From NCBI GenBank assembly GCA_964423885.1, contig CAYRGD010000004.1, positions 8,319 through 72,318 of the forward strand: a stretch of DNA of 64,000 nt. The letters run 5' to 3'. Shown here piece by piece: positions 2,502 to 30,266 of this stretch (its first letter is position 1; each line of letters starts with the position of its first letter). The position numbers were made by a program, and so were the translations under genes. The stretch comes from an uncultured Candidatus Saccharibacteria bacterium. Lineage in GTDB: Bacteria; Patescibacteriota; UBA1384; JACPKC01. Under the pieces are notes generated by a model, which did not search any database, was not told the DNA's origin, and was given only the letters and a program-made list of their open reading frames with translations.

Positions 2502-2504
2502 TCT

Positions 2505-6193: not shown

Positions 6194-6201
6194 CAGGTAG
6201 A

Positions 6202-8143: not shown

Positions 8144-8203
8144 GATGCCAGTGTACCTGTCGGGCCCCGGTCCGTCCATCCGTTTGGTACAATCACGGCG
8201 ATC

Positions 8204-9943: not shown

Positions 9944-9944
9944 T

Positions 9945-15418: not shown

Positions 15419-15451
15419 ACGCCACCCGGTCCGGCGGCCATACTGGCAACT

Positions 15452-16573: not shown

Positions 16574-16677
16574 CACGTTATCCCCACGCCGTCCGGTCGC
16601 GGCCCGTGGCAGGAGCGGGTATACTCGATCGACAGTAGTCCGTGAGTCGACCGACGGGGCAGGTCTATTGGAGGTGT

Positions 16678-17055
16678 ATGGCCAACGAGACACGTATCCT
16701 TGTCGCCGAAGACGAGCCCGCGATCGCCAAGGCGCTCGAGCTGAAACTCACCCATGCCGGGTACCAGGTCGACTGGGCCGCCGACGGCGACGAAGCGCTC
16801 GCCAAACTCGACGACGGAAAATACTCCCTGCTCCTGCTCGACCTCATCATGCCGAAGAAAGACGGGTTCGGGGTACTCGAGGCGCTGCAGTCGGGCAAGC
16901 GCAAGGTGCCGGTGATCGTGCTTACGAACCTGGGCCAGGAAGAAGACCTGGAGCGGGCCAAGAAGCTGGGCGCGACCGACTACTTCGTGAAGGCGGACAC
17001 CCCGATCGCCGAGGTGGTCAGCCACGTGGAGGATAAACTCAAACATGCGGATTGA
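16678..17055 (+). CDS. Stand-alone REC-domain response regulator (CheY/PilH-like) directly upstream of pilB
   Basis: ILVAEDEP...LLLLDLIMPKKDG...VIVLTN..K receiver motifs, GGAGG SD and an 11-nt overlap with pilB. Confidence 0.8.
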   Translation: MANETRILVAEDEPAIAKALELKLTHAGYQVDWAADGDEALAKLDDGKYSLLLLDLIMPKKDGFGVLEALQSGKRKVPVIVLTNLGQEEDLERAKKLGATDYFVKADTPIAEVVSHVEDKLKHAD

Positions 17056-18694
17056 CGACGCGAAACTCCAGACGATCCTCTCGAAAGAGCACTATGTCGG
17101 CGAGGCCGACCTCGCCAAGGCGGTCGCCTTTACGCGCGAGCACAAGACGCCGCTCGCCGATTACCTGCTGACCGCCGGGCTCATTACCGACGAGCTCTTG
17201 GGCCAGGCGATCGCCGAGTCGTTCACCGTGCCGTACGCCGACCTGGCTGCCCATCCGCCGCTCCGCGACCAAGTGCTCAAGATCCCGTTCGCCGTCGCGA
17301 CCGCCCACCGGCTGATTCTGTTCGAAGACGAACCGAAGCAGGTCGTCGTCGCCACCGACGCGCCCGACAGCACGGATGCCAAGCAGGCCCTGGCCGAGGT
17401 CTTTCCTGGCCGTAAGGTCGCGTTCGCCTACGCCCTGCCCTCGGCGATCGACGAGCAGCTCGGTTTCTTCCGTAAGCCGCTCGAGACGCGGACCAGCAAG
17501 ATCATCGAGGACGGCGGCCACGTCGCCCCGGAAATCATCGACGCGATCATCGACGACGCGATCAGCCTGCGGGCAAGCGACATCCACTTCGAGCCGGAGG
17601 CTGACGAGGTGATCGTCCGGTTCCGGATCGACAGCGTGCTCCAGGAAGGCGTTCGGATCGCGCGCGAGCACTACGAGACGATCGTCAACCGCATCAAGGT
17701 CCAGGCCCGGATGCGGATCGACGAACACCACGAGGCGCAGGACGGCGCGATCCGCTACGAACAGCACGAACGGACGGTCGACCTGCGTGTCTCGGTGGTA
17801 CCGACGCTCGACGGCGAGAAGGTCGTGATGCGCGTGCTCGCCGAGTACGTCCGCAGCTTCACGCTCGCGAACCTCGGCCTGTCGGCCCGCCACCAGGCCG
17901 AGCTTACGGCCGCGGCCAAGAAGCCGTTCGGCATGGTGCTCGTCACCGGCCCGACCGGTGCCGGCAAGACGACGACGCTCTACGCGCTGCTCAAATTATT
18001 GAACCGCCCCGAGGTCAACATCACCACGATCGAGGACCCGGTCGAGTACAAGGTGCCGGGTATGAACCAGATCCAGGTCGATCCGCTCACCAACCTGACC
18101 TTCGCGAGCGGGTTGAAATCGATCCTCCGGCAGGATCCGGACATCATCCTGGTGGGCGAGGTCCGCGACGAAGAGACGAGCGAGATCGCGATCAATGCGG
18201 CACTGACCGGCCACCTGCTCTTCACGACGTTCCACGCCAACGACGCCGCGACCGCGATCCCGCGCCTGCTCGACATGCACGTCGAGCCGTACCTGCTGTC
18301 GTCGACGCTCACGGTCATCATCGCCCAGCGGCTGGTGCGGCGGATCTGCACGAACTGCCGCTACAGCCAGACCTTGAAGCTCGCACAGGTCGAAAAGGTG
18401 CTGCCGGGTGCCAAGCGGTTCTTCGACGGCACCATGGTGACGCTCTACAAGGGCAAGGGCTGCGAGGTCTGCCATGGCACCGGGTACCGTGGCCGGATCG
18501 GGATCTTCGAGTTCCTGCCAGTGACGCCACAGCTCCAAGAGCTCATCCTCACCAATCCGTCGGGCGCCGAGATCGCCCGGCTGGCCGTCAAGCAAGGAAA
18601 CCCGACGATGTTCGACGACGGCATCGAGAAGGTGCTCGCCGGTATCACGACGCTCGACGAACTGATGCGCGTCACCGCGCCGCCGGCGGCATAA
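17045..18694 (+). CDS. pilB: Type IV pilus assembly ATPase PilB (GspE family)
   Basis: N-terminal GSPII_E_N domain, Walker A GPTGAGKTTT, Asp/His boxes and a tetracysteine C-x2-C...C-x2-C. Confidence 0.9.
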   Translation: MRIDDAKLQTILSKEHYVGEADLAKAVAFTREHKTPLADYLLTAGLITDELLGQAIAESFTVPYADLAAHPPLRDQVLKIPFAVATAHRLILFEDEPKQVVVATDAPDSTDAKQALAEVFPGRKVAFAYALPSAIDEQLGFFRKPLETRTSKIIEDGGHVAPEIIDAIIDDAISLRASDIHFEPEADEVIVRFRIDSVLQEGVRIAREHYETIVNRIKVQARMRIDEHHEAQDGAIRYEQHERTVDLRVSVVPTLDGEKVVMRVLAEYVRSFTLANLGLSARHQAELTAAAKKPFGMVLVTGPTGAGKTTTLYALLKLLNRPEVNITTIEDPVEYKVPGMNQIQVDPLTNLTFASGLKSILRQDPDIILVGEVRDEETSEIAINAALTGHLLFTTFHANDAATAIPRLLDMHVEPYLLSSTLTVIIAQRLVRRICTNCRYSQTLKLAQVEKVLPGAKRFFDGTMVTLYKGKGCEVCHGTGYRGRIGIFEFLPVTPQLQELILTNPSGAEIARLAVKQGNPTMFDDGIEKVLAGITTLDELMRVTAPPAA

Positions 18695-18704: not shown

Positions 18705-20180
18705 ATGGGGCAGGCGACGACACCATCCACACTGCGCCGGACGACGAACGCGCTCGAGCTCGTCGGCATCGGGCCGGAGCGCGACCAGTTCCTTGAGAAC
18801 CTGTCGCTGCTCGTCGGATCCGGCACCGGCGTGCTCGTGGCGCTCGACAGCCTCCAGGCTGACGCCCGGTCGCATGCGATGCGCCGAATCATCGGCCGCG
18901 TGCGTGCGGACGTGGACGCCGGCCAGCCGTTGTCGAAGGCGCTCGCCGCCACCGGTTTGCTGTCGCCGCAGGTGATCTCGCTGCTCGCGATCGGCGAGTC
19001 GTCGGGCCGGCTGCCCGAGAACCTCAAGGTCGTGGCCGTCCAGCAGCAGAAAGAGCGGCTGTTCCAGTCGAAGCTGGTCTCGGCGATGATCTACCCGGCA
19101 CTCGTGTTCGGCATCACCATCCTGGTCGGGCTCATCATCGCCTGGTTCATCCTGCCGAAACTGGCATTGGTCTTTGGCCAGCTCCAGCTCGACCTGCCGG
19201 TCATGACCAAGATCCTCATCGCCGTAGGCGCGTTCCTCAACCGCTACGGGATCGTCGCCGTCCCGGCGCTCATCGCCGCCGGCGTCGTGGCGACCTACCT
19301 GTGCTTCTTCGCCGCGCCCACGCGCTGGATCGGCGAGCGGTTTATCCTGGCGATCCCCGGCCTGCGGCGCGTCGTCGTCGAGGTCGAACTCGCCCGGTTC
19401 AGTTACGTGATGGGCACCCTGCTCGAGGCCGGCCTGCCCGTACTCGACACGCTCGGGGCGATCGAGTCGGCGACGCCGTTCACGACCTACCGGCGCCTCT
19501 ACGGCCACCTGCGCCGCCAGCTGGCCGACGGCCACTCGTTCCGCAGCGCGCTCGAGTCGTACCCGAACGTCCGCCTGCTCGTCCCGATCCCGATCCAGCA
19601 GCTTATCAACGCCTCGGAGCAGTCCGGCAGCTTGGCCGGCTCGTTCCTGCGTATCAGCGCCCTGTACGAAGAGAAGACCGATATCACGACCAAGAACCTG
19701 GTCGTGGTCATCGAGCCGGTGTTGCTCGTACTGGTTTGGCTCGGCGTCATGTTCGTGGCTGTCGCCGTCATCCTGCCGATCTACCGGCTCGTGGGTGAGT
19801 TCAATACGACGGCCCTCGAACCGGCCACGTCGACGGAGCCGACCGTGACCGAGGCGGAGACGCCAGTGAGCGTACCGGTGGTAGCCAAGGCGGTACCCGA
19901 GGCGCCGGCCGACGGCCTGCCGCTGCCCGGCACCGTGTTGGGTGCACGCGATCCCGCGGCGACCGCTGCAGCCAGCCAGCCGACCGTGCTTGTGGCTGAC
20001 GGCGTGAGCTACGTCAACGTCCGCGACCGGCCGAGCGAGCACGGTGCGCTGGTCGGCCGCGCCGAGCCGGGCACGGACTACCCGGTGCTCGCAGCGGACA
20101 GCGGGTGGTACCAGATTACGTTGCCAGCAGGAGGGGTGGGGTGGGTATCCGGCCAGTTCGTCACGACCGTACAGCAGTAA
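18705..20180 (+). CDS. pilC: Type IV pilus platform protein PilC (GspF family) fused to a C-terminal SH3b-like domain
   Basis: Two GspF repeats (...IESATPF.., ..LYEEKTD..) with 3 TM segments, then a Thr/Pro/Ala linker and YVNVRDRPS..GWYQITLP..GWVSGQFV (bacterial SH3-like). Confidence 0.8.
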   Translation: MGQATTPSTLRRTTNALELVGIGPERDQFLENLSLLVGSGTGVLVALDSLQADARSHAMRRIIGRVRADVDAGQPLSKALAATGLLSPQVISLLAIGESSGRLPENLKVVAVQQQKERLFQSKLVSAMIYPALVFGITILVGLIIAWFILPKLALVFGQLQLDLPVMTKILIAVGAFLNRYGIVAVPALIAAGVVATYLCFFAAPTRWIGERFILAIPGLRRVVVEVELARFSYVMGTLLEAGLPVLDTLGAIESATPFTTYRRLYGHLRRQLADGHSFRSALESYPNVRLLVPIPIQQLINASEQSGSLAGSFLRISALYEEKTDITTKNLVVVIEPVLLVLVWLGVMFVAVAVILPIYRLVGEFNTTALEPATSTEPTVTEAETPVSVPVVAKAVPEAPADGLPLPGTVLGARDPAATAAASQPTVLVADGVSYVNVRDRPSEHGALVGRAEPGTDYPVLAADSGWYQITLPAGGVGWVSGQFVTTVQQ

Positions 20181-20620
20181 GCGGCGCCGTTGAGCACGGC
20201 TTCACGTTGCTCGAGGTGCTGCTGTCGCTTGCGCTCATGTCGGCGATCGTCGGCGTGTCCGCGCCGATCTACCAGTCGTTCCAAGTGAAGAACGACCTCG
20301 ACCTGGCCGCCAACGCGGTCGCTGCGGGGTTCCGCCGCGCCCAGATCCTGTCGCTCGCGAGCGACGGCGACAGCTCGTGGGGCGTCCATATCGCTGCCGG
20401 CTCGATCACGATCTTCAAGGGTGCGAGCTACGCTGGCCGCGACAGCGCCTACGACGAAACCACCGTCGTGCCGGGCACGATCACGCCGACCGGTCTTGGC
20501 GACGCGGTCTTCGCGCGTGTCACCGGCGCCTCGGGCGCGGCCGGGACGGTGACCCTGACCGCGAGCACCGGCCAGGTGCGCACGGTCGCGCTGTCGGCGA
20601 AAGGTACGGTGACGTACTGA
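20141..20620 (+). CDS. Pseudopilin/minor pilin with a class III (prepilin) signal. GTG start preceded by AGGAGG.
   Basis: ...EHG|FTLLEVLLSLALMSAIVGV. RBS AGGAGG at 20129-20134. Overlaps the pilC 3' end. Confidence 0.65.
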   Translation: MGIRPVRHDRTAVSGAVEHGFTLLEVLLSLALMSAIVGVSAPIYQSFQVKNDLDLAANAVAAGFRRAQILSLASDGDSSWGVHIAAGSITIFKGASYAGRDSAYDETTVVPGTITPTGLGDAVFARVTGASGAAGTVTLTASTGQVRTVALSAKGTVTY

Positions 20621-23600
20621 TGCACGTCCGGCCGACCGACAACCGGGCAGCGCACGGCCAGGGCGGCTTCTCGCTCGTCGAGGCGATGCTGTCGGCCGCG
20701 GTGTTCTCGATCGTGGTCACGAGCTTCGCCGGCGCGCTCATCGTGGGCCAGCAGTCCACGCTCGGTGCCGGTGCCCGCGCCCGGGCGATGAACCTGGCCG
20801 AAGAGGGGCTCGAGTCGGTCCGCAACATCCGCGACCAGGCGATGAACGAGCTCCAGTACGCCCAGAGCGGCGTCCAGGTGTCCGGCAACGTCTGGGGGTT
20901 CCTGGGCGAGGGTTCGACCGAAACGATTGACACGTTCACGCGCACGATCAGTTTCGGGGACGTGTGCCGCACCGGCGCGAACGTGATCGCCGCCTGCCCG
21001 GCGAGCTACACCGACCCGCACACGAAACAGGTCACCGTCGCGGTCAGCTGGCCGGTCGGGCCGGGATTGACCACCAGCTCGGTCACCCGGGTGAGCTACC
21101 TGACCGATTGGGAATCGGCCAGCTGGACGCAGACCAACTGGATCGGCGGGTCGGGACAAGTCGCCTGGTCGGCCACCGACAAATACGACAGCGCGACCGG
21201 CGTCAACGTTGGCGTCGCCGGCCAGGTGACGCTGGCTGGCATGGGCGGCGGTCTCTTTGTCGACGACGAGCAGGCCGAGTTCAACGCGGGGTCGCACAGC
21301 CAGACGCAGTACGATACCGGCAATACCTGGCTGGAGCTCACCGGTGCCGGCCAGACCGCCGGTACCGGCACGTTCACCTCGCGGATCTTCGATGCCGGCG
21401 GCACGGCGGTGTGGTCGGCGTTCGATTGGGTGCCGGTCCGGCCGACCGGCAAGGAACTGCCGAACGACGGCGCGACCGAGTCCGGCTACGCGGCCGGCAA
21501 CGTCGCCATGACGAACAACCAGTTCCTGTACCACCTGAACCAGAACTCGGGCGCCACGAGCTTCACGGACAACTCCGGCAACGGCCGCACTGCCACCTGT
21601 GCCGGCGGCCAGTGTCCCACGGCGGGCGTGGCCGGCAACCAAGGGAATGCGGTCACGTTCGACGGCACGAACGACCGCTTGACGAGCCCGGTCAACCTGG
21701 CGACCTACCTGGGCGGTACCTCGTCGTTGAGCGTCTGGATCAAAACCACCCAGACCGGCAACGCCACCTTCTGGGAAGCCCCGGGTATCACCGGTGTCGA
21801 GAGCAACGGGAACGGGAACGACATTTTCTGGGGTTGGATCAGTAACACCGGCCGGATCGGGTTCAACGTCGGTGACGGGGGCGGGCTCTTGAGCGCCAAT
21901 CCGATCAACAACAACCAGTGGCACCACGTGCTCATGACCAGGAACGCTACCACCGGCGCGATCGCGCTCTACGTCGACGGTGTCGCGCAGACCGGCACGA
22001 GCGACACCGGCGCGAAGACGACCGCCTTCACGACGATCGGGATGGTCGATGATACGGGCGGCACCCCGACGTTCTACGCCGGCTCGATGGACGAACTCGC
22101 CGTCTGGAACCGCGTACTCAGTCCCACCGAGGCGGCCGATATCTACCGCCGGGGCGCGCTCAACCTCACCTTCCAAGTCCGCTCCTGCGACGACGCGGCC
22201 TGCGCGGGCGAGTCGTTCATGGGGCCGGACGGCACCGGCAGTACGGTGTATTCGGAGATCGCGAACGCTACGCTGAATCCGCCGGCCACAACGGTGACGA
22301 ACGTTGCCAATAACCGGTACATGCAGTACCGCGCCGTACTGACGACGCTGAACGCCTCGCTCTCGCCGGAAGTGACCAAGGTCTCGCTGCCGCATATCGG
22401 GCTGCTCATCGACGATACGCAGGCGGAGTTCAATACGGGAACCTATACTGCCACCCAGTACGATACCGGCAACAGCTGGCTGGAGCTCACAGCTGGCGGC
22501 CAGAGTGCCGGTACCGGCACCTATGCCTCGGAAGTCTTCGACATCGGCGGTGCTGCCGCCTGGTCGACATTCGGCTGGCTGCCGCAGCGGCCGACAGGAA
22601 AGGAGTTGCCGGGCGCCGGTGGTATGGAAACGGGGTATACGACCGGGAATATGGCTATGACCGGCAACGTGCTCCTCGCGCATCTCAACGAGGCGTCGGG
22701 TACCACCTTCGCGGACAGCTCCGGCACCGGCAACAACGGCACCTGCACCGGCGTCGGCTGCCCCACATACGGCTCGGCAGGGAAGTTGGCCCAGGCGATC
22801 ACCGCAAACGGCACGAACGACGAGATAGTGGTGCCGGACGCGGCATCGCTCGATATCGCCGACGACCTCACGGTGATGGGGTGGTTCAACGCGACCGGCG
22901 CCGGTACCGCGCTCGGCGACATCGGGAACGCCACGATCGACTCGCTCGAGTTCGACACCGCCGACGGCCAGACGCCGGATATCCTGCAGGTGTCCGGCGA
23001 CGTCTACGTGGTCGCGTACACCGGTCCGGGGCAGGACGGCTGGCTGGCAACCTTCACGATCGACAGTTTCGGCAACGTGGGCAACGCCGTCATTGACACG
23101 CTCGAGTTCGATACCGCGGACGGCCGCTCGCCGTCGATCGTGCACGTCTCGGGCAACATCTACGCCGTGGCGTACGACGGCGTCGACAACGACGGCTGGG
23201 TGAAGACCTTCTCGATCACGCCGGCCGGCGATATCAGCAACGCCACGATCGATTCACTGGAATTCAATACCACGAACGGTCTGACGCCGCACCTGGTCCA
23301 TGTCTCCGGCACCGCCTACGCCGTCGCGTACACCGGGCCGGACGGCGACGGCTGGGTGACGTCCTTCACGATCAGTGCTGCCGGCGACATCAGCAACAGC
23401 ACGGTCGATTCCTTGGAGTTCGATACCGCCGACGGGTTGCGGCCGTATCTCTTTCCGGTCTCGGGCAACATCTACGCCGTGGCGTACACCGGGCCTGCGG
23501 GGGACGGGTTCCTCAAATCATTCACCGTTAGCGGCACCGGCGACATCGGGAACAGCGTGATCGATACGCTCGAATTCGACACCGCCGACGGCCAGGCACC

Positions 23601-24927
23601 ATCCGTGGTCCACGTATCCGGGAACGTCTTCGCGGTCGCCTATCGCGGGCCGGGCGACGACGGTTGGGTGAAGACGGTGACCATTAGCGGCACCGGCGAT
23701 ATCGGGAACGCCACCGTCTCTTCCTTCGAGTTCGATGCGTCGAACGGCCTGGCACCGCAGATCGCGCACGTCCACGGCAATGTCTACGCTGTCGCGTATA
23801 CCGGCCCAGGCAACGACGGATGGTCGGCCACCTTCACGATCAGTCCGGCGGGCACGATCGGTGGCGCGACCATCGACACGTTCGAGTGGAACACCAGCGA
23901 CGGCGTCGAGGCGTCGCTCATCCACGTCAATCGGGATATCTGGGCCGTCGCCTACCAGGGCCCGGCCGGCGACGGCTTCGTGACCACCTTCGACATCGCG
24001 AGCAACCGCGGCGTCTCGAAGAGCGGTGCCTACGGCCTGTCTTCGACCACCACGACCGCGACAGGTATTATCAACGGCGTGACGGTATCGAGCGCCATCA
24101 CCAGCGGATGGCACCACTTGGCACTCACCTACGACAACGATCTCGGCTCGAACCAAATCCGACTGTTCGTCGACGGCACCCAGACGGCGACGGCAACCCT
24201 GACCGCCGACATCAATCTCAATGATTGGGACGCGGTGCTCGGGAGCCAGTTCGCCGGCGCACTCGACGAGGTGGCGGTGTTCAGCCGGATGCTGTCGGCC
24301 ACGGAGGTGAACGATGCTTGGCGCCGCGGGGCGCTCCGGGCCAATTACCAAGTCCGCTCCTGCGACGACGCGGCCTGCGCGGGCGAGTCGTTCATGGGGC
24401 CGGACGGCACCGGCAGTACGGTGTACTCGGAGCTCATGAATACCGGCCTGACGCCGCCGAGCGCACTCCCGCTCACGAACGTCGCCGATAACCAGTACTT
24501 TCAATACCGAGTCGTACTTGAGACCGACGCCGCGGCTATTTCCCCGGAGATCCGATCGGTGACCATCCAGCACGGCGCGGGCGGCGGCAGCGGATACCAG
24601 GTAGCGGGGTCGCTGCTGTCGTCGGCGTATAATATGGGCGACGCCTCGCCGGTCGAAATCATCGAATGGGACCAGCAGGCTGCAAGCTGCAGTCCGGCCT
24701 GTTCGATCCGGTTCCAGTTGCGGACAGCGCCGGACAACGCCGGTTCGCCCGGCACGTGGACGGGCTGGTACGGCGCGACCGGTCCCGGCACCTACTTCAC
24801 GGCTGCGACCGGTACACGGGTCCCTGTGGCCTTGAACGGCAACCAGTGGGTGCAGTACCGCGTCGAGCTCGCCGGGGACGGTACCGACACCCCGACACTC
24901 GACGAAGTCCGCGTATACTACCGGTAA
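20620..24927 (+). CDS. Giant prepilin-anchored adhesin-like pseudopilin (1435 aa): two LamG/ConA-like modules plus 7 tandem propeller-like repeats of about 52 aa
   Basis: MHVRPTDNRAAHGQG|FSLVEAMLSAAVF prepilin N-terminus. A unit of about 370 aa is duplicated. 7 repeats of ..LEFDTADG..VSGN.YAVAYTGPG.DGW..TFTIS..G.IGNA.. Confidence 0.75.
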   Translation: MHVRPTDNRAAHGQGGFSLVEAMLSAAVFSIVVTSFAGALIVGQQSTLGAGARARAMNLAEEGLESVRNIRDQAMNELQYAQSGVQVSGNVWGFLGEGSTETIDTFTRTISFGDVCRTGANVIAACPASYTDPHTKQVTVAVSWPVGPGLTTSSVTRVSYLTDWESASWTQTNWIGGSGQVAWSATDKYDSATGVNVGVAGQVTLAGMGGGLFVDDEQAEFNAGSHSQTQYDTGNTWLELTGAGQTAGTGTFTSRIFDAGGTAVWSAFDWVPVRPTGKELPNDGATESGYAAGNVAMTNNQFLYHLNQNSGATSFTDNSGNGRTATCAGGQCPTAGVAGNQGNAVTFDGTNDRLTSPVNLATYLGGTSSLSVWIKTTQTGNATFWEAPGITGVESNGNGNDIFWGWISNTGRIGFNVGDGGGLLSANPINNNQWHHVLMTRNATTGAIALYVDGVAQTGTSDTGAKTTAFTTIGMVDDTGGTPTFYAGSMDELAVWNRVLSPTEAADIYRRGALNLTFQVRSCDDAACAGESFMGPDGTGSTVYSEIANATLNPPATTVTNVANNRYMQYRAVLTTLNASLSPEVTKVSLPHIGLLIDDTQAEFNTGTYTATQYDTGNSWLELTAGGQSAGTGTYASEVFDIGGAAAWSTFGWLPQRPTGKELPGAGGMETGYTTGNMAMTGNVLLAHLNEASGTTFADSSGTGNNGTCTGVGCPTYGSAGKLAQAITANGTNDEIVVPDAASLDIADDLTVMGWFNATGAGTALGDIGNATIDSLEFDTADGQTPDILQVSGDVYVVAYTGPGQDGWLATFTIDSFGNVGNAVIDTLEFDTADGRSPSIVHVSGNIYAVAYDGVDNDGWVKTFSITPAGDISNATIDSLEFNTTNGLTPHLVHVSGTAYAVAYTGPDGDGWVTSFTISAAGDISNSTVDSLEFDTADGLRPYLFPVSGNIYAVAYTGPAGDGFLKSFTVSGTGDIGNSVIDTLEFDTADGQAPSVVHVSGNVFAVAYRGPGDDGWVKTVTISGTGDIGNATVSSFEFDASNGLAPQIAHVHGNVYAVAYTGPGNDGWSATFTISPAGTIGGATIDTFEWNTSDGVEASLIHVNRDIWAVAYQGPAGDGFVTTFDIASNRGVSKSGAYGLSSTTTTATGIINGVTVSSAITSGWHHLALTYDNDLGSNQIRLFVDGTQTATATLTADINLNDWDAVLGSQFAGALDEVAVFSRMLSATEVNDAWRRGALRANYQVRSCDDAACAGESFMGPDGTGSTVYSELMNTGLTPPSALPLTNVADNQYFQYRVVLETDAAAISPEIRSVTIQHGAGGGSGYQVAGSLLSSAYNMGDASPVEIIEWDQQAASCSPACSIRFQLRTAPDNAGSPGTWTGWYGATGPGTYFTAATGTRVPVALNGNQWVQYRVELAGDGTDTPTLDEVRVYYR
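22173..22250 (+). repeat. 78-bp perfect direct repeat, copy 1 of 2 (copy 2 at 24348..24425)
   Basis: Identical 78 nt encode ..QVRSCDDAACAGESFMGPDGTGSTVY.. in both LamG-like modules. Confidence 0.85.
22918..24010 (+). repeat. Seven tandem coding repeats of about 156 bp (52 aa) each. They are divergent at the DNA level and conserved at the protein level.
   Basis: Repeats read directly from the translation: IDSLEFDTADGQTPDILQVSGDVYVVAYTGPGQDGWLATFTIDSFGNVGNAV and six more. Confidence 0.7.
24348..24425 (+). repeat. 78-bp perfect direct repeat, copy 2 of 2
   Basis: Identical to 22173..22250; about 2.2 kb apart within the same gene. Confidence 0.85.
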
Positions 24928-24931: not shown

Positions 24932-25465
24932 ATGCCGCTGCTGCCTCACCCTGCCCGTCGTGCCGCCCGCTCCCGCGGCTTCACGCTGGTCGAGCTCCTG
25001 CTCTACCTGGCGATCACGTCGATCATCATCACGAGCGTCTCCGGGTTCCTGATCACCATGCTGCAGGCCCGGGCCAAGTTCCAGACGATCAGCGAGGTCG
25101 AGGCGCAGGGCCAGCAGGCGATGCAGGCGATCACCCAGACGATCCGGAACGGCACGGCGATCACGAGCCCCGGCACGGGTACCTCGGCGGCCGCGCTCAC
25201 GATCACGGTCCCGACCGGCCCCTTGAGTCCGACCGTCTTCGACCTGTCGGGCGGCATCGTCCGCGTCAAGGAGGGCACGGGCGCGGTCCAGAACCTGACG
25301 ACCAGCCGGGTGACGGTGTCGGGCCTTGCGTTCGACAACCTGACCCGGGCCACCACCCAGGGGACGGTCCGGATCACGTTCACGGTCACGAGCGTCAACA
25401 CGAGCGGCCGGAACGAGTTCAGCTACGCCAAGACCTTCCGCGATACTGCCACCTTCCGCCAATGA
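24932..25465 (+). CDS. Pseudopilin/minor pilin (prepilin-type N-terminus)
   Basis: ...SRG|FTLVELLLYLAITSIIITSV class III signal. Confidence 0.7.
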   Translation: MPLLPHPARRAARSRGFTLVELLLYLAITSIIITSVSGFLITMLQARAKFQTISEVEAQGQQAMQAITQTIRNGTAITSPGTGTSAAALTITVPTGPLSPTVFDLSGGIVRVKEGTGAVQNLTTSRVTVSGLAFDNLTRATTQGTVRITFTVTSVNTSGRNEFSYAKTFRDTATFRQ

Positions 25466-25866
25466 CCCGCCGCACCGACCCTGCCGCCGGCTACGTCACC
25501 TTGCTTACGGTGTTGGTCGTGAGCGCCGTCGGCGTCGCGATCACGAGCTCGCTGCTCCTCCTGGGGCTCGGTAACGCCCGTTCGGGCCTGGCGCTCCAGC
25601 AGGCGAAAAACGCGGCTGCGCTCGCCGACGCCTGTGCCGAGGAGGCGCTCCAGCAGATGCGTTTCTCGCCGGCGTACTCGGGGACGGCCACCCTGTCGCT
25701 CGGCGCCGGCAGCTGCACGTACACGGTCACCGTGGGCGTGGGCGAGGCCCGCGAGGTGCGCTCGACCGGCACGGTCGGCTCGGTCGTCCGCAAGGTCATC
25801 GTTGCCGTGAGCGCGCTCACCCCGAAGACGGTCGTCGCCTCGTGGCAGGAAGTGGCGTCGTTCTAG
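25462..25866 (+). CDS. PilX-like minor pilin / pilus assembly protein
   Basis: N-terminal hydrophobic helix (GYVTLLTVLVVSAVGVAITSSLLLL), small Ala/Thr-rich domain and an ATGA overlap with the upstream pseudopilin. Confidence 0.5.
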   Translation: MTRRTDPAAGYVTLLTVLVVSAVGVAITSSLLLLGLGNARSGLALQQAKNAAALADACAEEALQQMRFSPAYSGTATLSLGAGSCTYTVTVGVGEAREVRSTGTVGSVVRKVIVAVSALTPKTVVASWQEVASF

Positions 25867-25931
25867 CTATCCACTAGCCAAGCGGCCTATCGATAGGCAC
25901 TATGAATGAAACAAGTACAAGGAGGGTTGCA

Positions 25932-26372
25932 ATGCATGAGCAGCGGCGCGGGTTCACGTTACTCGAAATTCTCTTGGTCGTCGGCGCGATCAGCATCCTG
26001 GCCGCCATCGTGATCGTGGCCCTGAACCCCACGAAGCAGCTCGCCGATACCCGCAACGCCCAGCGCCGGGTCGACGTGAATACGATCCTCAATGGCATCT
26101 ATCAGTACGCGATCGACCACAACGGCTCGCTGCCGGCAGCCATCACCACCAGCGCGACCGGGATCTGCCGGACCGATGGCGTGGACTGCAGCACGCTCAT
26201 CGACCTGCCGGAACTGACCACCAACGGCACCTACTTGGTGGCGATCCCACGCGACCCGACGGCTGCGGACGCGGACACCACCGGCTACACCGTCCTCAAG
26301 AACGTGAACAACCGGGTTACCGTGAGCGCCCCGTCCGCCGAGAGCGGCGCCACGATCAGCGTCACCCGCTAG
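25932..26372 (+). CDS. Type IV (major) pilin, GspG/PulG-like; tandem copy 1
   Basis: MHEQRRG|FTLLEILLVVGAISILAAIV, then ..ADTRNAQRRVDVNTILNGIYQYAIDHNGSLP.. AAGGAGG SD upstream. Confidence 0.8.
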   Translation: MHEQRRGFTLLEILLVVGAISILAAIVIVALNPTKQLADTRNAQRRVDVNTILNGIYQYAIDHNGSLPAAITTSATGICRTDGVDCSTLIDLPELTTNGTYLVAIPRDPTAADADTTGYTVLKNVNNRVTVSAPSAESGATISVTR

Positions 26373-26394
26373 TAGCAGCAAGAAAGGACACGCC

Positions 26395-26838
26395 ATGAAC
26401 CAGCACCGGTCGAAGCGCGGCTTCACCCTCTTGGAAATCCTGCTCGTCGTCGGCGCGATCGCCATCATCGCCGGCATCGTGATCCTCGCGATCAACCCGA
26501 GCAAGCAGCTCGCCGATACCCGTAACGCCCAGCGCCGGGTCGACGTGAACACGATCTTGAACGGCATCTACCAGTACGCGATCGACAACAACGGCGCCCT
26601 GCCGGCGACGATCACCGTCACCTCGACGCCGATCTGTAACACCGGCGGCACCTGCACCGGGCTCATCGACTTAGGCGTCCTGACGGCAAGCGGCACCTAC
26701 CTTGTCTCGATCCCGAAGGATCCGACCGGCGCCACGGTCAACAGCACGGCCTACAACGTGAGCAAGAACGCCAATGGCCGCGTGACCGTCAATGCCCCGT
26801 CCGCCGAGAGCAGCGCGACGATTTCGGTGACCCGCTAA
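26395..26838 (+). CDS. Type IV (major) pilin, tandem paralog; copy 2
   Basis: MNQHRSKRG|FTLLEILLVVGAIAIIAGIV. Largely identical in sequence to copy 1. Confidence 0.8.
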   Translation: MNQHRSKRGFTLLEILLVVGAIAIIAGIVILAINPSKQLADTRNAQRRVDVNTILNGIYQYAIDNNGALPATITVTSTPICNTGGTCTGLIDLGVLTASGTYLVSIPKDPTGATVNSTAYNVSKNANGRVTVNAPSAESSATISVTR

Positions 26839-27390: not shown

Positions 27391-28377
27391 ATGGCGGCGG
27401 AGCACGCGCTGCCTGCGCAGGCGACCACCCGGCACCGCTCGATCCGGATGCGGCTGGTGTCGAGCTTCATGGTCGTCTTTTTGGCGATCGCCGGCTACGG
27501 CCTGTTCATTTCGGGCGAGACCCAGACGATGCACGCGCGGCTGCTCGTCGCCCGGGAACGGAACGACGAGTACACGCTGCTCTGGAACCTGAAGTACGCG
27601 AACCGCCAGCTTGTCGGCAAGACACGGGCGGTCGTCTATGCCAAGGGAGACCATACCGCCCTCATGACCGGTTACGACGAAGGGAACGCTGCCTACGACG
27701 ACTACGGCCGCCGGCTGGTGACGCTCTTCGACGACCAGGAATCCCTGGCCCGCCTCCAGGAGTTGCGCGCTGCCGGTGACCGGCTCCGGTCGTCCGAACA
27801 GCAGTTGTTCGCCCTTGAGGAAGCCGGCCGGCATGACGAGGCGTTGGCGCTGCTCGCCGGGCCGTACCAAGACGGCCTGTTCGCCTACTCCGACCGGATC
27901 GACCGGTTCCTGCAAACCCAGAGCGAGGCGATCGAGTCCGGCGTCCAGACGCTGCGCCAGCAGGCCCTGGCGATCAACTCGGCCAGCCTGGTGGTGCTCA
28001 TGCTCATCCTTGTGCTGATCCTGCTCGTGTTCGTACTCATCAACCGCAACATCATCCAGCCGATCCAGGCGCTCGCCGCCGTGGCCCGCGCCTTCTCCGA
28101 CGGCGACCTGTCGGTGCGGGGTACGGTCGGTGCCCACGACGAGCTGGGCGAGCTGACCGCGACCTTCAACGCGATGGGCGAGCGGCTCGAATCGCGGACG
28201 AAAGAACTCGTCGCCTCGAAAGAGACGCTCGAGGACGACGTCAAACGGCGGACGGCCGAGCTCGAAGAGAAGATCGCCGAACTCGAACGGTTCAATCGGT
28301 TCGTTGTCGGGCGCGAACTCAAGATGGTCGAGCTCAAGAAACAGCTGGCTGCGCTCAAGAAGCAGGGGAAGGCATGA
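27391..28377 (+). CDS. HAMP-domain membrane protein (periplasmic sensor + HAMP + coiled coil, no kinase)
   Basis: TM1, a periplasmic region of about 170 aa, TM2 (LVVLMLILVLILLVFVLI), then a HAMP domain (IQPIQALA..FSDGDLSVRG..ELGELTATFNAMGERL) and a coiled coil. Confidence 0.65.
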   Translation: MAAEHALPAQATTRHRSIRMRLVSSFMVVFLAIAGYGLFISGETQTMHARLLVARERNDEYTLLWNLKYANRQLVGKTRAVVYAKGDHTALMTGYDEGNAAYDDYGRRLVTLFDDQESLARLQELRAAGDRLRSSEQQLFALEEAGRHDEALALLAGPYQDGLFAYSDRIDRFLQTQSEAIESGVQTLRQQALAINSASLVVLMLILVLILLVFVLINRNIIQPIQALAAVARAFSDGDLSVRGTVGAHDELGELTATFNAMGERLESRTKELVASKETLEDDVKRRTAELEEKIAELERFNRFVVGRELKMVELKKQLAALKKQGKA

Positions 28378-30266
28378 GCACCGACCGCTTCCATGCGGCC
28401 TGGGACGCCTTCGTGACGGGCGGTACGCCCGAGCGCGCCTCGGACGACACGGCCCGGCTTGTCCGCTTCTTGAACGTCTTCCTGCTCGTCGGCATCCTGA
28501 CGCTGTCGGGTTTCGCGCTGCTCAATATCCTGGCCGAGCACCGCCCGATCCTCGGTGCCGCCGAGATCGCCTTGAGCCTGTTCGCGGGTGCGACCCTGCT
28601 GTACCTGCGCGCCTCGCGCGCCCCCGACCGGGTCGCCACGATCTCGTTGCTCCTCATCGCGACCATCTTCGTGCTCCTCATCGTGACCGGCGGCGTCCAG
28701 CGGACCGGCATCTACTGGGTACCGATCTTCCCGATCGCCGCCTTTTTTCTGAAAGGCCGGTACCACGGCATCTTCTGGATCCTCGGCTTCATCTGCTCGC
28801 TGCTCGTCCTGCACCTTGTCTCGCTCATGACGACGCTCAGCTTGAGCTACGGCCCGGTCGAGCTCCGGCAGCTGCTCGCGAGCCTCACGATCCTGGGCAC
28901 GCTCGTGTACTTCTACTTCGAGTACGTCCGCGAGCACGACGAGCACATCCTGGTCGAGCGCGAGCATGAACTCTACGAACGCAACCGCGAGCTGCGCGAA
29001 CAGATCGCCAGCCAAGAGGAATCCCAGGTCAGGCAGCGGGAACTCATCGCCACGATCGACAAGACGATCACCGAGATCCAGCAGAAGAACGCCGACCTGG
29101 AACACAACAAGACGGCGATGCTCAACATCCTCGAGGACCTTGAACGCGAGAAAGAGACGACGCTCGAGAACGAGCGCAAGGACGAAGCCCTGCTGGCGAG
29201 CATCGGCGAAAGCATGGTCGCCACGGACGCCAAGGGCACGGTGATCGTCGCCAACAAGCGGGCCGAGGAGCTTGTGGGCGTACCGGCCAAGCGGCTCGTC
29301 GGCAAGCCCTACGCCGAGATCCTGCGGTTCGTTGATACGGTCGACAAGCCGTTGGCGGCCAAGGCACAGCCGATCGCGATCGCGCTCGCCACTCGCGAGC
29401 CCTACGCCACCTCCGACCTCAAGGTCGTCCGCGCCGACGGCACGCACGTTCCGGTCGCGGTCACGGCCGCGCCGGTCGAGAGCAAGGGCAAGCAGATCGG
29501 CGGGATCGTCGTGCTGCGCGACATCACGCGCGAGAAGCAGATCGACCAGGCCAAGACCGAGTTCGTCTCGCTCGCGAGCCACCAGCTGCGCACCCCGCTG
29601 TCGGCGATCGGCTGGTATGTCGAGATGCTCCTGTCGGGCGATGCCGGCAAGCTCGACGAGACGCAGACGGAGTACCTCAAGGAAATCCAGCACGGCGGCA
29701 AGCGGTTGGTCGACATGGTCAACTCGCTCTTGAACGTGTCGCGGATCGAGCTCGGGACGTTCATGGTCGAGCCGAAACCGACCAAGCCTGTCGAGCTGGC
29801 CGAGGCCGTGCTCGACGAGGTGAAGGCGCTCATCACGAATCATAACCTGACGCTCGAGCGGCGGTTCGCCAAGGACATCCCAGTGATCACGCTCGACCCG
29901 CACCTCTTGCAGATCATCCTCCAGAACCTCATTAGCAACGCGATCAAGTACACGCCCGAGGGCGGCAAGATCACGTTGAGCCTGGGCGTCAAGGACGACG
30001 CGTTCGCGATCAAGATCAAGGATACCGGTATCGGGATCCCTGCTTCGCAGCACGAGCATATCTTCGAGAAGCTGTTCCGAGCCGACAACGTCAAGAAGAC
30101 GGATACCGACGGGACTGGCCTGGGGCTCTACATGGTCAAGCAGATCCTCGACGAGATCGGCGGCACGATCAGCTTCGCGTCCGCCGAAGGCAAGGGTACG
30201 ACCTTCCTGGTCTTCCTGCCCTTGCGCGGCATGAAGCAGCGTGCAGGCACACGGAGGTTGTCATGA
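28374..30266 (+). CDS. Sensor histidine kinase (multi-TM N-terminal domain, PAS, HisKA, HATPase_c)
   Basis: About 6 TM segments, a PAS domain, the H-box ..SLASHQLRTPLSAI.. and N, G1, G2 boxes (NLISNAIKYT, DTGIGIP, GTGLGLYMV). ATGA overlap with the HAMP gene. Confidence 0.85.
   Translation: MSTDRFHAAWDAFVTGGTPERASDDTARLVRFLNVFLLVGILTLSGFALLNILAEHRPILGAAEIALSLFAGATLLYLRASRAPDRVATISLLLIATIFVLLIVTGGVQRTGIYWVPIFPIAAFFLKGRYHGIFWILGFICSLLVLHLVSLMTTLSLSYGPVELRQLLASLTILGTLVYFYFEYVREHDEHILVEREHELYERNRELREQIASQEESQVRQRELIATIDKTITEIQQKNADLEHNKTAMLNILEDLEREKETTLENERKDEALLASIGESMVATDAKGTVIVANKRAEELVGVPAKRLVGKPYAEILRFVDTVDKPLAAKAQPIAIALATREPYATSDLKVVRADGTHVPVAVTAAPVESKGKQIGGIVVLRDITREKQIDQAKTEFVSLASHQLRTPLSAIGWYVEMLLSGDAGKLDETQTEYLKEIQHGGKRLVDMVNSLLNVSRIELGTFMVEPKPTKPVELAEAVLDEVKALITNHNLTLERRFAKDIPVITLDPHLLQIILQNLISNAIKYTPEGGKITLSLGVKDDAFAIKIKDTGIGIPASQHEHIFEKLFRADNVKKTDTDGTGLGLYMVKQILDEIGGTISFASAEGKGTTFLVFLPLRGMKQRAGTRRLS

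What the first reader, a model, noticed from the sequence alone, without database searches (positions are those of the whole stretch)
20620..24927. Giant prepilin-anchored adhesin with a propeller-like array inserted into a duplicated LamG-like module
The gene begins with a class III prepilin signal (..GQG|FSLVEAMLSAAVFSIVV), so it is built like a pseudopilin. The mature protein is about 1400 aa. It contains a unit of about 370 aa that occurs twice, each ending in ..ELAVWNRVLSPTEAxDxxRRGAL..YQVRSCDDAACAGESFMGPDGTGSTVYSE.., which is typical of concanavalin/LamG-like lectin folds. Seven tandem 52-aa repeats (..LEFDTADG..VSGN.YAVAYTGPG.DGW..TFTIS..G.IGN..) sit between the WFNAT and WHHLALT segments of the second module, that is, in a loop of that domain. 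Seven blades is what a beta-propeller needs. A PilY1-like propeller embedded in a lectin module and fused directly to a pilin helix is not an architecture I recognise. It would be the tip or adhesive component of this minimal pilus.
Basis: partly seen in the sequence, partly recalled or inferred. Interest (0 to 1): 0.8.

Follow-up and report, generated by a model that had tools for sequence, protein, structure and literature searches.

The report
Giant lectin-bearing minor pilin of Patescibacteria
This gene encodes a very large type IV pilus subunit from an uncultivated ultrasmall (Patescibacteria/CPR) bacterium whose pilin stalk carries a chain of sugar-binding-type domains nested inside one another, most likely the sticky tip of the pilus; the kind of protein is already known, but the nested cassette and its propeller repeat family are not yet described.

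Summary
Window 20620-24927 (+) is one intact 1435-aa gene with a canonical class III prepilin signal (G16|F17, E+5). It has a duplicated ~385-aa module (46% identity) and seven exact 52-aa repeats inserted in the LamG domain of the second module.

AlphaFold2 gives a confident seven-bladed beta-propeller (pLDDT 90-97). Its closest solved folds are the Photorhabdus PLL and Burkholderia BP39L lectins, not PilY1. The N-terminus is predicted as a pilin lollipop.

The "LamG-like unit" is itself nested: LamG sits inside a small jelly roll, which recurs uninterrupted as the conserved C-terminal domain.

The gene fills a conserved slot (PilB-PilC-pilin-[this]-pilin-p134-major pilins) in about 80 Patescibacteria species. 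There the N- and C-terminal domains are kept and the middle cargo varies (210-2009 aa).

The LamG[propeller] cassette is recurrent (83 cluster representatives). It also sits on Thermoplasmatota archaeal pilins beside their pilus machinery.

This is therefore a modular minor pilin, a known kind: S. sanguinis PilB/PilC, and Saccharibacteria PilX1/PilX2, the latter with a jelly roll and a heptabladed propeller respectively. It is a new architectural variant built on a propeller repeat family that has no Pfam or NCBIfam model. Tip location and glycan binding are inferred, not shown.

The parts
20620..24927 (+). Whole gene: 1435-aa modular minor type IV pilin (stop codon 24925-24927)
   Evidence: identical protein P0001 in NCBI
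20620..20667 (+). Class III leader peptide, aa 1-16 (MHVRPTDNRAAHGQGG); predicted cleavage G16|F17
   Evidence: Read from the sequence; N_methyl PF07963 at 18.8 bits
20668..21114 (+). Pilin module, aa 17-165: hydrophobic alpha1 helix (aa 19-70, Glu at +5), beta-sheet (aa 84-162), invariant Cys116/Cys126
   Evidence: AF2, (pLDDT about 71-87); family alignment A1
21115..21231 (+). Linker, aa 166-204, holding the family's most conserved motif W-x-GG-x-GQ-x-x-W (aa 174-183, nt 21139-21168); predicted with low confidence
21232..21516 (+). Jelly roll 1, N-terminal half plus connector (aa 205-299)
21517..22170 (+). LamG domain 1 (aa 300-517), inserted in jelly roll 1
   Evidence: Pfam Laminin_G_3, aa 348-504; Foldseek matches to LG, pentraxin and trans-sialidase lectin domains
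22171..22395 (+). Jelly roll 1, C-terminal half (aa 518-592; FQVRSCDD...)
   Evidence: hhalign against the C-terminal domain: probability 98%, E 1e-14
22396..22665 (+). Jelly roll 2, N-terminal half plus connector (aa 593-682)
22666..22926 (+). LamG domain 2, N-terminal part (aa 683-769), ending with strand LTVMGWFNAT
22927..24018 (+). Seven 52-aa repeats (aa 770-1133): predicted seven-bladed beta-propeller inserted in a LamG2 loop
   Evidence: (pLDDT 90-97, four strands per repeat); arrays elsewhere come in multiples of 7
24019..24345 (+). LamG domain 2, C-terminal part (aa 1134-1242; ..WHHLALT..EVAVFSRMLS..RRGAL)
24346..24585 (+). Jelly roll 2, C-terminal half (aa 1243-1322; YQVRSCDD...)
24586..24924 (+). 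Jelly roll 3 (aa 1323-1435): uninterrupted copy of the host jelly roll and the conserved C-terminal domain of the family
   Evidence: hhalign; present in 43 of 79 family loci
17045..18694 (+). PilB-type assembly ATPase (T2SSE, MshEN)
18705..20180 (+). PilC-type platform protein (T2SSF) with a C-terminal SH3_3 domain
20105..20620 (+). Small minor pilin upstream (..HGFTLLEVLLSL..); the true start is probably downstream of 20105; its stop overlaps the start of the giant gene
   Evidence: syntenic in 66 of 79 loci
24932..25465 (+). Small minor pilin downstream (..RGFTLVELLLYL..)
25462..25866 (+). 134-aa protein anchored by one hydrophobic helix; conserved partner in the operon
25902..26838 (+). 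Two paralogous small pilins (156 and 147 aa; RRGFTLLEILLVVGAI..), candidate major pilins
16642..17055 (+). Response-regulator receiver protein at the head of the operon
27391..30266 (+). HAMP protein and PAS histidine kinase immediately after the pilin genes

Best explanation
The gene encodes a modular minor type IV pilin of a high-GC Patescibacteria (CPR) bacterium.

Proposed mechanism:
1. A prepilin peptidase cleaves after G16.
2. The hydrophobic alpha1 helix and small beta-sheet module join the pilus together with the three neighbouring small pilin-like proteins: the pilin upstream, the pilin downstream and the 134-aa protein. This would resemble the four-member priming/tip complex of other type IV filaments.
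3. The remaining ~1230 residues are too bulky for the filament body, so they project from the tip.
4. This cargo is a string of lectin-type beta domains built by nested insertion: jelly roll 1 [LamG1], jelly roll 2 [LamG2 [seven-bladed propeller]], then an uninterrupted jelly roll 3.
5. These domains bind surface glycans, or other surface ligands, of the cell or substrate the organism attaches to.

Across Patescibacteria the gene keeps its operon slot and its N- and C-terminal domains but swaps the middle cargo. That pattern fits a receptor-recognition subunit that diversifies with the partner.

Shown: the signal motif, the fold predictions, the operon, the conserved synteny, the variable cargo and the recurrence of the cassette. 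Inferred: cleavage, tip location, ligand class and a role in attachment.
For: - Signal and pilin fold: G-1/F+1/E+5; alpha1 aa 19-70 plus beta-sheet.
- Operon: PilB, PilC and four other pilin-like genes.
- Synteny in GTDB Patescibacteria loci: PilB 65/79, PilC 71/79, upstream pilin 66/79, C-terminal domain 43/79, but LamG only 10/79 and propeller 5/79. Gene lengths run from 210 to 2009 aa.
- LamG: Pfam Laminin_G_3 at 100.5 bits; Foldseek matches to lectin, CBM, pentraxin and LG domains.
- Repeat arrays in relatives come in multiples of seven: 7 (118 arrays), 14, 21, 28 and 49.
- The same LamG[propeller] cassette sits on Thermoplasmatota archaeal pilins directly after two T2SSE and two T2SSF genes. 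At least 92 of 244 propeller proteins have a pilin-like N-terminus. One phage contig has the propeller between head and tail genes.
- Composition: 43.8% Gly+Ala+Ser+Thr (GAST) and six short-range Cys pairs, typical of exposed extracellular proteins.
- Precedents: S. sanguinis PilC, a ConA-like lectin pilin that binds glycans in a tip complex (PMC9934059); PilB and the survey of modular pilins (PMC8179133); TM7x PilX1 (jelly roll) and PilX2 (heptabladed propeller, needed for host binding; rhamnose inhibits binding) (PMC11623550).
Against: - No experiment bears on this protein. Cleavage, assembly, tip location and ligand are all inferred.
- N_methyl scores below Pfam's cut-off (18.8 vs 21.2 bits).
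- No prepilin peptidase, PilM/N/O or PilT gene lies in the window.
- LamG and propeller domains also occur in enzymes.
- The most conserved family motif (WxGGxGQ) is modelled with low confidence, so the pilin-to-cargo junction is not understood.
- Orthology with TM7x PilX1 could not be tested.
Confidence: 0.7

Rival explanations
1. It is a membrane-anchored surface lectin rather than a pilus subunit. The class III signal and alpha1 helix only tether it in the membrane or in a short pseudopilus. Archaeal class III-signal sugar-binding proteins and T2SS pseudopilins work this way. The lectin domains would then act at the cell surface, in cell-cell contact or substrate capture.
For: - It has the same sequence features as a pilin, but nothing shows incorporation into a filament.
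- No retraction ATPase is present in the window.
- A ~150-kDa cargo is hard to export on a filament.
- The archaeal homologues carry the same cassette on Pilin_N anchors, and class III signals in archaea are known (my own knowledge) to serve non-filament proteins too.
Against: - The gene sits inside a complete pilin gene set with PilB/PilC in about 80 species, between other minor pilins.
- Short 210-220-aa members consist of the pilin module alone, as expected of a true minor pilin.
- Bulky modular pilins are modelled at pilus tips in S. sanguinis (PMC9934059), and TM7x PilX2 acts together with its filament (PMC11623550).
Confidence: 0.15
2. It is a pilus-displayed carbohydrate-active enzyme (glycosidase or trans-glycosidase-like) that remodels or cleaves host surface polysaccharide, rather than a pure adhesin.
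For: Foldseek matches include trypanosomal trans-sialidases (propeller plus lectin domain), the GH43 arabinanase AbnA and the glycoside hydrolase BT3686. The survey of modular pilins found pilins carrying peptidase modules (PMC8179133).
Against: - The matches to AbnA and the trans-sialidases in the N-terminal model, which has no propeller, are to their non-catalytic lectin/CBM domains, e.g. AbnA domain 4.
- Sialidase propellers have six blades; this one has seven.
- No glycoside-hydrolase or other catalytic Pfam or NCBIfam model matches.
- The top propeller matches are non-enzymatic lectins.
Confidence: 0.07
3. It is a minor pilin of a DNA-uptake (competence-type) pilus. The cargo would serve something other than attachment to a partner cell, such as binding DNA or matrix polymers.
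For: There is a weak NCBIfam similarity of the N-terminus to ComGE, and to PilV. Patescibacteria are naturally competent and type IV pili are implicated in uptake (PMC10633639, listed; not read in detail).
Against: - The ComGE hit is far below its cut-off (15.5 vs 49 bits).
- LamG and PLL-like propellers are carbohydrate- or protein-binding folds, not DNA-binding ones.
- In TM7x the thin pilus that carries the propeller pilin did not contribute to competence (PMC11623550).
Confidence: 0.05
4. It is an artefact: a mis-assembled or expanded repeat array, or a false fusion of several genes.
For: The gene is long and repeat-rich and comes from a metagenome assembly. An 84-nt stretch is 83/84 identical between the two modules.
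Against: - The repeats are only 53-72% identical at the nucleotide level, too divergent to mis-assemble.
- The frame is open throughout with high GC3.
- Independent homologues from other samples share the same order, the same seven blades and the same insertion point.
- AF2 folds the nested module confidently as one unit.
Confidence: 0.02

Closest known systems
Modular type IV pilins of Streptococcus sanguinis: PilC (Ig-like plus ConA-like lectin module) and PilB (vWA module) (PMC9934059, PMC8179133)
   Same: - A class III signal and a small pilin module, followed by grafted non-pilus binding modules.
- PilC's module belongs to the same ConA-like/LamG superfamily and binds glycans.
- They are minor pilins encoded with the pilus machinery and modelled at the tip.
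- Pilin+PF13385 is listed among the commonest modular-pilin architectures, with a Magasanikbacteria example.
   Different: - The present protein is three times larger.
- It carries two LamG domains plus a seven-bladed propeller, assembled by two levels of domain insertion rather than in a row.
- It has a conserved C-terminal jelly roll.
- No detectable sequence similarity to the solved S. sanguinis PilB/PilC structures was seen in the PDB sequence searches.
- Nothing has been tested experimentally.
Saccharibacteria (Nanosynbacter lyticus TM7x) minor pilins PilX1 and PilX2 (PMC11623550)
   Same: - Same phylum-level group (Patescibacteria).
- Each is the largest minor pilin of its locus.
- PilX2 is needed for efficient host binding.
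   Different: - There the jelly roll and the propeller are on two separate pilins of two different pili and are simple C-terminal additions. Here they are combined and nested in one subunit.
- The PilX2 propeller has RCC1 repeats. The present 52-aa repeat matches no Pfam model.
- PilX1/PilX2 were reported to lack a predicted PilD signal. This protein has a canonical one.
- Orthology was not tested because the TM7x sequences could not be fetched.
PilY1/PilC tip adhesins of Pseudomonas, Neisseria and Myxococcus
   Same: A seven-bladed propeller at the pilus tip with an adhesive role, combined with variable extra modules.
   Different: - PilY1 is not a pilin; it docks on the minor-pilin complex through its propeller.
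- No PilY1/Neisseria_PilC profile match here.
- PilY1 is not among the best structural matches.
- Here the propeller is cargo, not the docking module.
PLL-family lectins (Photorhabdus PLL, PHL, PLL2-5; Burkholderia BP39L; Chromobacterium CV39L)
   Different: - Only 9-17% identity and no sequence-level relationship.
- Those are free, soluble lectins. This propeller is embedded in a LamG loop on a pilin.
- Sugar binding is untested.
MshQ (DUF6701) of the MSHA pilus
   Same: A large protein (>1000 aa) containing LamG and encoded in a type IV pilus locus. It is recovered at E about 1e-38 through the LamG domain.
   Different: The present protein has no hit to the Pfam domains found in the MshQ hits (PF20419 in proteins named DUF6701/MshQ, and PF28238/28243/28247). 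It also differs in its N-terminus and in its propeller and jelly-roll content.
Thermoplasmatota archaeal 'type IV pilin' proteins of about 1180 aa (e.g. MBN2602607.1)
   Same: They carry the same LamG[52-aa-repeat propeller] cassette, 30-42% identical, on a class III-signal pilin. The gene lies directly downstream of the pilus ATPase and platform genes.
   Different: - An archaeal Pilin_N (PF07790) anchor.
- Fourteen blades (a double propeller) instead of seven.
- No flanking jelly roll and no conserved C-terminal domain.
- They form a separate clade.
- They are uncharacterised.

Membership tests
Type IV pilin / modular type IV pilin (sensu Raynaud et al. 2021) | Class III signal peptide: a short hydrophilic leader ending in Gly, then a hydrophobic stretch of about 20 residues with Glu at +5 | tested here: met
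   MHVRPTDNRAAHGQGG|FSLVEAMLSAAVFSIVVTSFAGAL. E21 is nearly invariant in the family. Pfam N_methyl scores 18.8 bits, below its cut-off of 21.2.
Type IV pilin / modular type IV pilin (sensu Raynaud et al. 2021) | Pilin fold: a long N-terminal alpha1 helix packed on an antiparallel beta-sheet | tested here: met
   AF2: helix aa 19-70, strands aa 84-162, pLDDT about 71-87. This is a prediction only. No solved pilin is detectable by sequence beyond the helix.
Type IV pilin / modular type IV pilin (sensu Raynaud et al. 2021) | One or more extra modules, not specific to pilus biology, grafted after the pilin module | tested here: met
   Laminin_G_3 twice; seven-bladed propeller; three copies of a jelly roll.
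Type IV pilin / modular type IV pilin (sensu Raynaud et al. 2021) | Encoded with type IV filament machinery and other pilins | tested here: met
   PilB, PilC and four further pilin-like genes are adjacent. The order is conserved in 65-71 of 79 related loci.
Type IV pilin / modular type IV pilin (sensu Raynaud et al. 2021) | Processing by a prepilin peptidase and incorporation into the filament | not testable with these tools
   No prepilin peptidase gene in the window. Needs mass spectrometry or microscopy.
Laminin G / ConA-like lectin superfamily (Pfam Laminin_G_3) | Profile match above the curated cut-off | tested here: met
   PF13385: E 1.3e-28, 100.5 bits against a cut-off of 27.6, two stretches.
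Laminin G / ConA-like lectin superfamily (Pfam Laminin_G_3) | Jelly-roll beta-sandwich fold | tested here: met
   The AF2 models match LG domains, pentraxins, the trans-sialidase lectin domain and AbnA domain 4.
Laminin G / ConA-like lectin superfamily (Pfam Laminin_G_3) | Carbohydrate or protein ligand binding | not testable with these tools
   Needs glycan arrays or ITC.
PilY1 / Neisseria PilC adhesin family | Sequence match to the PilY1/PilC C-terminal propeller domain | tested here: not met
   No such Pfam hit for the whole protein (E<=0.01) or for the propeller at E<=1. No NCBIfam hit.
PilY1 / Neisseria PilC adhesin family | A non-pilin protein that docks on the minor pilins through its propeller | tested here: not met
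PLL-type propeller lectins | Seven-bladed beta-propeller fold similar to PLL, PHL and BP39L | tested here: met
PLL-type propeller lectins | Sequence homology to the PLL repeat | tested here: not met
   9-17% identity in the structural alignments. A profile of the repeat family finds no PDB sequence at E<=0.1.
PLL-type propeller lectins | Inter-blade sugar-binding pockets | not tested
   Model coordinates could not be inspected, and there are no binding data.
FG-GAP, PQQ, WD40, RCC1 and LVIVD propeller repeat families | Profile match of the repeat | tested here: not met
   None is listed at E<=1 for aa 765-1140 or for five stand-alone relatives. The only hit above its cut-off is DUF3471 (33.3 vs 29.3 bits), which covers less than two repeats and is judged spurious.
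MshQ / DUF6701 | The Pfam domains carried by the MshQ/DUF6701-named hits (PF20419 and PF28238/28243/28247) | tested here: not met
   Absent from the Pfam hits of this protein. The similarity to MshQ proteins is confined to LamG.
Patescibacterial conserved 'large variable minor pilin' family (defined here) | N-terminal pilin module with Cys116/Cys126 and the W-x-GG-x-GQ motif, in the slot after PilB-PilC-small pilin | tested here: met
   Alignment A1; 122 confirmed loci in species-representative genomes; synteny.
Patescibacterial conserved 'large variable minor pilin' family (defined here) | Conserved C-terminal jelly-roll domain of about 110 aa | tested here: met
   aa 1323-1435. Present in 43 of 79 loci and in P0003-P0012, P0020-P0033.
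TM7x PilX1 / PilX2 | Orthology (sequence similarity, same locus position) | not tested
   The TM7x sequences were not retrievable. Only the description in PMC11623550 was compared.

The most novel reading that the evidence does not exclude
The 52-aa repeat defines a large, unnamed seven-bladed propeller family: about 1600 clusters at 50% identity, with no Pfam or NCBIfam model. Nested in a LamG loop, it forms a mobile recognition cassette that has been mounted repeatedly on type IV filament subunits in both domains of life. In Patescibacteria pilins it has 7 blades, often inside a further jelly roll. In Thermoplasmatota archaeal pilins it has 14 blades. It also occurs in at least one phage structural protein. 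An 84-nt near-identical tract between the two modules of this gene could allow in-frame gain or loss of a whole module, so the pilus tip could change specificity by cassette shuffling.
Probability: 0.4. Interest if true: 0.65.

Novelty: new variant of a known kind. Interest (0 to 1): 0.5.

Why it matters
Patescibacteria make up a large share of bacterial diversity, and the cultivated members live attached to other microbes. How they recognise a partner is largely unknown. The only genetics so far (TM7x) points to lectin-like minor pilins.

This gene shows that the relevant subunit sits in a conserved operon slot across the phylum, with a swappable cargo. One such cargo is a nested LamG/propeller cassette that archaeal pilins also carry. 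This yields three things:
- a concrete, alignable family in which to search for host-specificity determinants;
- an unmodelled propeller repeat family that could be added to domain databases;
- a clean example of two-level domain insertion that structure prediction handles confidently.

It does not overturn anything. The principle of modular pilins is established.

Tried and rejected
Rejected.
- Assembly artefact: rejected on repeat divergence and independent homologues.
- DUF3471 hit on the propeller (33 bits): spans parts of two repeats and is weak or absent in relatives. Treated as spurious.
- Enzyme reading from the trans-sialidase and GH43 matches: for the N-terminal model the matches fall on lectin/CBM domains, and there is no catalytic family hit. 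Kept only as a low-probability rival.
- Organism name: an exact look-up of the protein gave no record, and the cluster look-up gave no name or accession. Placement in Patescibacteria therefore rests on relatives and gene content.
- Whether the ~380-aa stand-alone propeller proteins are viral. A single-sequence scan of viral contigs found nothing. A profile scan found one phage contig with the propeller between head and tail genes. Neighbours of P0250 on short contigs gave no PHROG annotation. Inconclusive.
- PDB sequence searches with the whole protein, the propeller profile and the pilin-module profile found no informative relative.
- Literature searches for this cassette in CPR or Thermoplasmatota pilins found nothing specific.
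- Direct inspection of inter-domain contacts in the AF2 models was not possible, because coordinates were not exposed. The nesting of the jelly-roll halves therefore rests on secondary structure, pTM 0.76 and the hhalign match to the uninterrupted C-terminal copy.

Full report
**1. The observation**

Window 20620-24927 (+) is a single open frame with high GC3 (0.86). The longest ORF starts at GTG 20377. That stretch overlaps the upstream pilin gene in another frame. The ATG at 20620 overlaps the upstream stop (TGATG) and gives MHVRPTDNRAAHGQGG|FSLVEAMLSAAVFSIVV. This is a canonical class III prepilin signal, with Gly at -1, Phe at +1 and Glu at +5. The product is 1435 aa.

Seven repeats of exactly 52 aa occupy aa 770-1133, between WFNAT (755) and WHHLALT (1164). 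Tandem Repeats Finder sees the 156-nt period with scores 372-410, and the repeat finder sees the same spacing.

The duplicated unit is real. Residues 205-592 align with 593-1322 once the repeats are excised: 46% identity over 385 aa, E 9e-107.

The repeats average 54% aa and 64% nt identity. That is far too divergent for a collapsed or expanded assembly. The identical protein is on a 93-kb NCBI contig.

**2. Anatomy**

*Domain profiles.* Pfam finds Laminin_G_3 at 100.5 bits in two stretches, and N_methyl just below its cut-off. Nothing in Pfam or NCBIfam matches the 52-aa repeat, the C-terminal 113 aa or the linker.

*Module 2 model.* AlphaFold2 was run on aa 593-1322 with an 11-sequence alignment of full-coverage homologues. 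It gives mean pLDDT 88.5 and pTM 0.76. The repeat region scores pLDDT 90-97 and has four strands per repeat, seven times over.

*N-terminal model.* A second model covers aa 1-600, at mean pLDDT 70. It shows a 52-residue alpha1 helix (aa 19-70) and a beta-sheet (aa 84-162), the pilin lollipop. A low-confidence linker (aa 164-208) follows, then beta-sandwich domains. Their Foldseek matches are LG domains, pentraxins, the lectin domain of trans-sialidases, AbnA domain 4 and botulinum-toxin Hc.

The segments before LamG (DDxQAEFNxG...W.P) and after it ([FY]QVRSCDD...SPE...V) are the two halves of a small jelly roll. Profile-profile comparison aligns the second half to residues 41-113 of the conserved C-terminal domain (probability 98.3%, E 1e-14). 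It aligns the first half collinearly to residues 5-30 (probability 71%, E 4e-5). Short-range Cys pairs sit at equivalent places in all three copies.

*Resulting architecture:* leader (aa 1-16), pilin module (17-165), linker with W-x-GG-x-GQ (166-204), jelly roll 1 [LamG1] (205-592), jelly roll 2 [LamG2 [seven-bladed propeller]] (593-1322), jelly roll 3 (1323-1435).

**3. Surroundings**

- The operon reads: response regulator, PilB (T2SSE), PilC (T2SSF with an unusual C-terminal SH3 domain), a small pilin, this gene, a small pilin, a 134-aa single-helix protein, two paralogous ~150-aa pilins (likely major pilins), a 174-aa protein, a HAMP protein and a PAS histidine kinase.
- Downstream lie DnaX, DnaB, UvrD and a G5-DPBB protein.
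- Upstream lie glycosyltransferases and two Wzy_C-family proteins.
- No PilD, PilM/N/O or PilT is in the window.

**4. Relatives**

*The pilin family.* A profile of the N-terminal module found 122 confirmed loci among species-representative genomes. Where a specific lineage is named it is Patescibacterial (Falkow-, Magasanik-, Uhr-, Dojka-, Kerfeld-, Buchanan-, Sung- and Saccharibacteria); other records are titled only 'bacterium' or 'uncultured bacterium', and about ten co-assembly bins are titled Gammaproteobacteria, labels I consider unreliable. The best is 76% identical.

In the 80 loci kept, the order PilB-PilC-small pilin-[this gene]-small pilin-p134-major pilins is conserved. PilB is present in 65 of 79 loci, PilC in 71, the upstream pilin in 66 and the C-terminal domain in 43. 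LamG is present in only 10 and the propeller in only 5. Gene length ranges from 210 aa (pilin module alone) to 2009 aa.

Close homologues show the same ends with different middles: DUF2341-like modules, stand-alone propeller arrays, other beta-rich cassettes, or LamG modules. So this is a conserved slot with swappable cargo.

*The propeller family.* An exhaustive search with the propeller against 1.84 billion representative proteins gave 1642 clusters at E<=1e-3 and 686 at E<=1e-30. Arrays come in multiples of seven: 7 in 118 cases, 14 in 10, and also 21, 28 and 49. This independently supports a seven-blade structural unit.

*The nested cassette.* LamG[propeller] is recurrent. It occurs in 34 of the top 146 hits and in 83 cluster representatives overall. 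Several of these carry the outer jelly roll as well.

*Archaeal pilins.* The best hits to module 2 are ~1180-aa Thermoplasmatota proteins annotated 'type IV pilin' or 'flagellin-like'. They have Pilin_N and LamG_3, with 14 repeats inside LamG. One of them lies directly after two T2SSE and two T2SSF genes and before further Pilin_N genes. In a quick NJ tree built from the LamG segment that follows the propeller, the archaeal 14-blade cassettes form almost one clade and the bacterial 7-blade ones another.

*Other carriers.* At least 92 of 244 propeller proteins begin with a pilin-like hydrophobic N-terminus. One IMG/VR phage contig carries the propeller in a 541-aa protein between head and tail genes.

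**5. Mechanism**

The best-supported reading is a modular minor pilin that displays lectin-type modules at the pilus tip.

*Shown:* the signal, the predicted pilin fold, the operon, the conserved slot with variable cargo, the lectin-like folds, and the recurrent association of the cassette with type IV filament subunits.

*Inferred from established work:*
[quoted passage not shown] The ConA-like module of S. sanguinis PilC is a bona fide lectin (PMC9934059, PMC8179133).
- In Saccharibacteria TM7x the largest minor pilins carry a jelly roll (PilX1) or a heptabladed propeller (PilX2). Deletion of PilX2 halves host binding, and free rhamnose blocks binding (PMC11623550).

*Rivals:* a membrane-tethered surface lectin not built into a filament (0.15), a pilus-borne carbohydrate-active enzyme (0.07), a competence-pilus subunit (0.05) and an artefact (0.02). 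Each has a stated refutation test.

**6. Comparison and novelty**

The protein meets every testable criterion of a modular type IV pilin. It fails the tests for PilY1, FG-GAP, PQQ, RCC1 and MshQ membership. It resembles PLL-type lectins in fold only.

Modular lectin pilins as a kind are known, and they are documented in Patescibacteria. Three things are new here:
- (a) The two-level nested architecture combines both lectin types in one subunit.
- (b) The 52-aa propeller repeat family is large and has no model in the domain libraries searched.
- (c) The LamG[propeller] cassette is shared by bacterial and archaeal pilins.

I rate it a new variant of a known kind, interest 0.5. It is solid and useful for the question of partner recognition in ultrasmall bacteria, but it would not surprise a pilus specialist.

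**7. Limits**

- There are no experimental data.
- TM7x orthology is untested.
- Model coordinates could not be inspected.
- The phage link rests on one contig.

Noticed in passing
window 22174-22257 and 24349-24432: An 84-nt stretch encoding QVRSCDDAACAGESFMGPDGTGSTVYSE is 83/84 identical between the two modules, while the surrounding module DNA is about 63-75% identical. The spacing is 2175 nt, or 725 codons. This looks like a gene-conversion tract. In-frame recombination here would remove or add exactly one module.
   Followed up: partly
window 21139-21168 (aa 174-183): The W-x-GG-x-GQ-x-x-W motif just after the pilin module is the most conserved feature of the whole family. Yet it lies in the segment that AF2 models with the lowest confidence (pLDDT 32-45). 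It may fold only against a partner subunit.
   Followed up: no
window 18705-20180: The PilC platform protein carries a C-terminal SH3_3 domain (aa 436-486). This is unusual for T2SSF proteins.
   Followed up: no
window 2605-16573: Directly upstream of the pilus operon lie glycosyltransferases (GT1, GT2, GT4), a Mur ligase and two Wzy_C/O-antigen-ligase-family membrane proteins (4949-6193 on the minus strand, 5956-7590 on the plus strand). To my knowledge the Wzy_C family includes pilin O-oligosaccharyltransferases, so pilin glycosylation is possible.
   Followed up: no
window 46200-48700: A lower-GC island (0.55 against about 0.66). It holds a class I methyltransferase (46272-47051) and two divergently oriented, distantly paralogous ~215-aa proteins with C-terminal winged-helix domains (47145-47795 on the minus strand, 47995-48642 on the plus strand).
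   Followed up: partly
window 55459-58316: A second lower-GC stretch (0.58-0.62) with two ~470-aa ORFs. The first has only a weak Rossmann-type NAD(P)-binding match. The second has no family match.
   Followed up: partly
P0250, P0261, P0266, P0259, P0170 (loci L083-L085): About 30 cluster representatives are stand-alone ~380-aa proteins made of just seven repeats. They start MAEGDIG and end KHLxLMGIG, have no signal peptide, and sit on short contigs among small unannotated genes. Their function is unknown and they may be viral.
   Followed up: partly
L082 6004-7629 (IMGVR_UViG_3300005253_000024): On a phage contig, a 541-aa protein with this propeller lies between the major head protein and tail proteins. 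Its C-terminus weakly resembles a minor tail protein.
   Followed up: partly
P0345 (OGO32504.1, Chloroflexi RBG_16_56_11), P0307, P0179, P0137: Proteins of about 505 aa and upwards carry the propeller behind a different hydrophobic N-terminus (..EKGQALPLAIMALAFGMLVITPFLSH..). This may be another filament-subunit or anchor type. P0137 has 49 repeats.
   Followed up: no
L086 2097-14321 (GCA_016936135.1, JAFGPP010000007.1): A Thermoplasmatota pilus locus: two T2SSE ATPases, two T2SSF proteins, the 1177-aa LamG[14-blade] pilin, a 289-aa protein and a 500-aa Pilin_N protein.
   Followed up: partly
window 25902-26838: Two tandem paralogous small pilins (156 and 147 aa) have nearly identical N-terminal halves. 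Related loci carry between one and four such copies.
   Followed up: no
window 2321-2581: A cluster of three tRNA genes: Ser(gct), Arg(gcg) and Arg(ccg).
   Followed up: no
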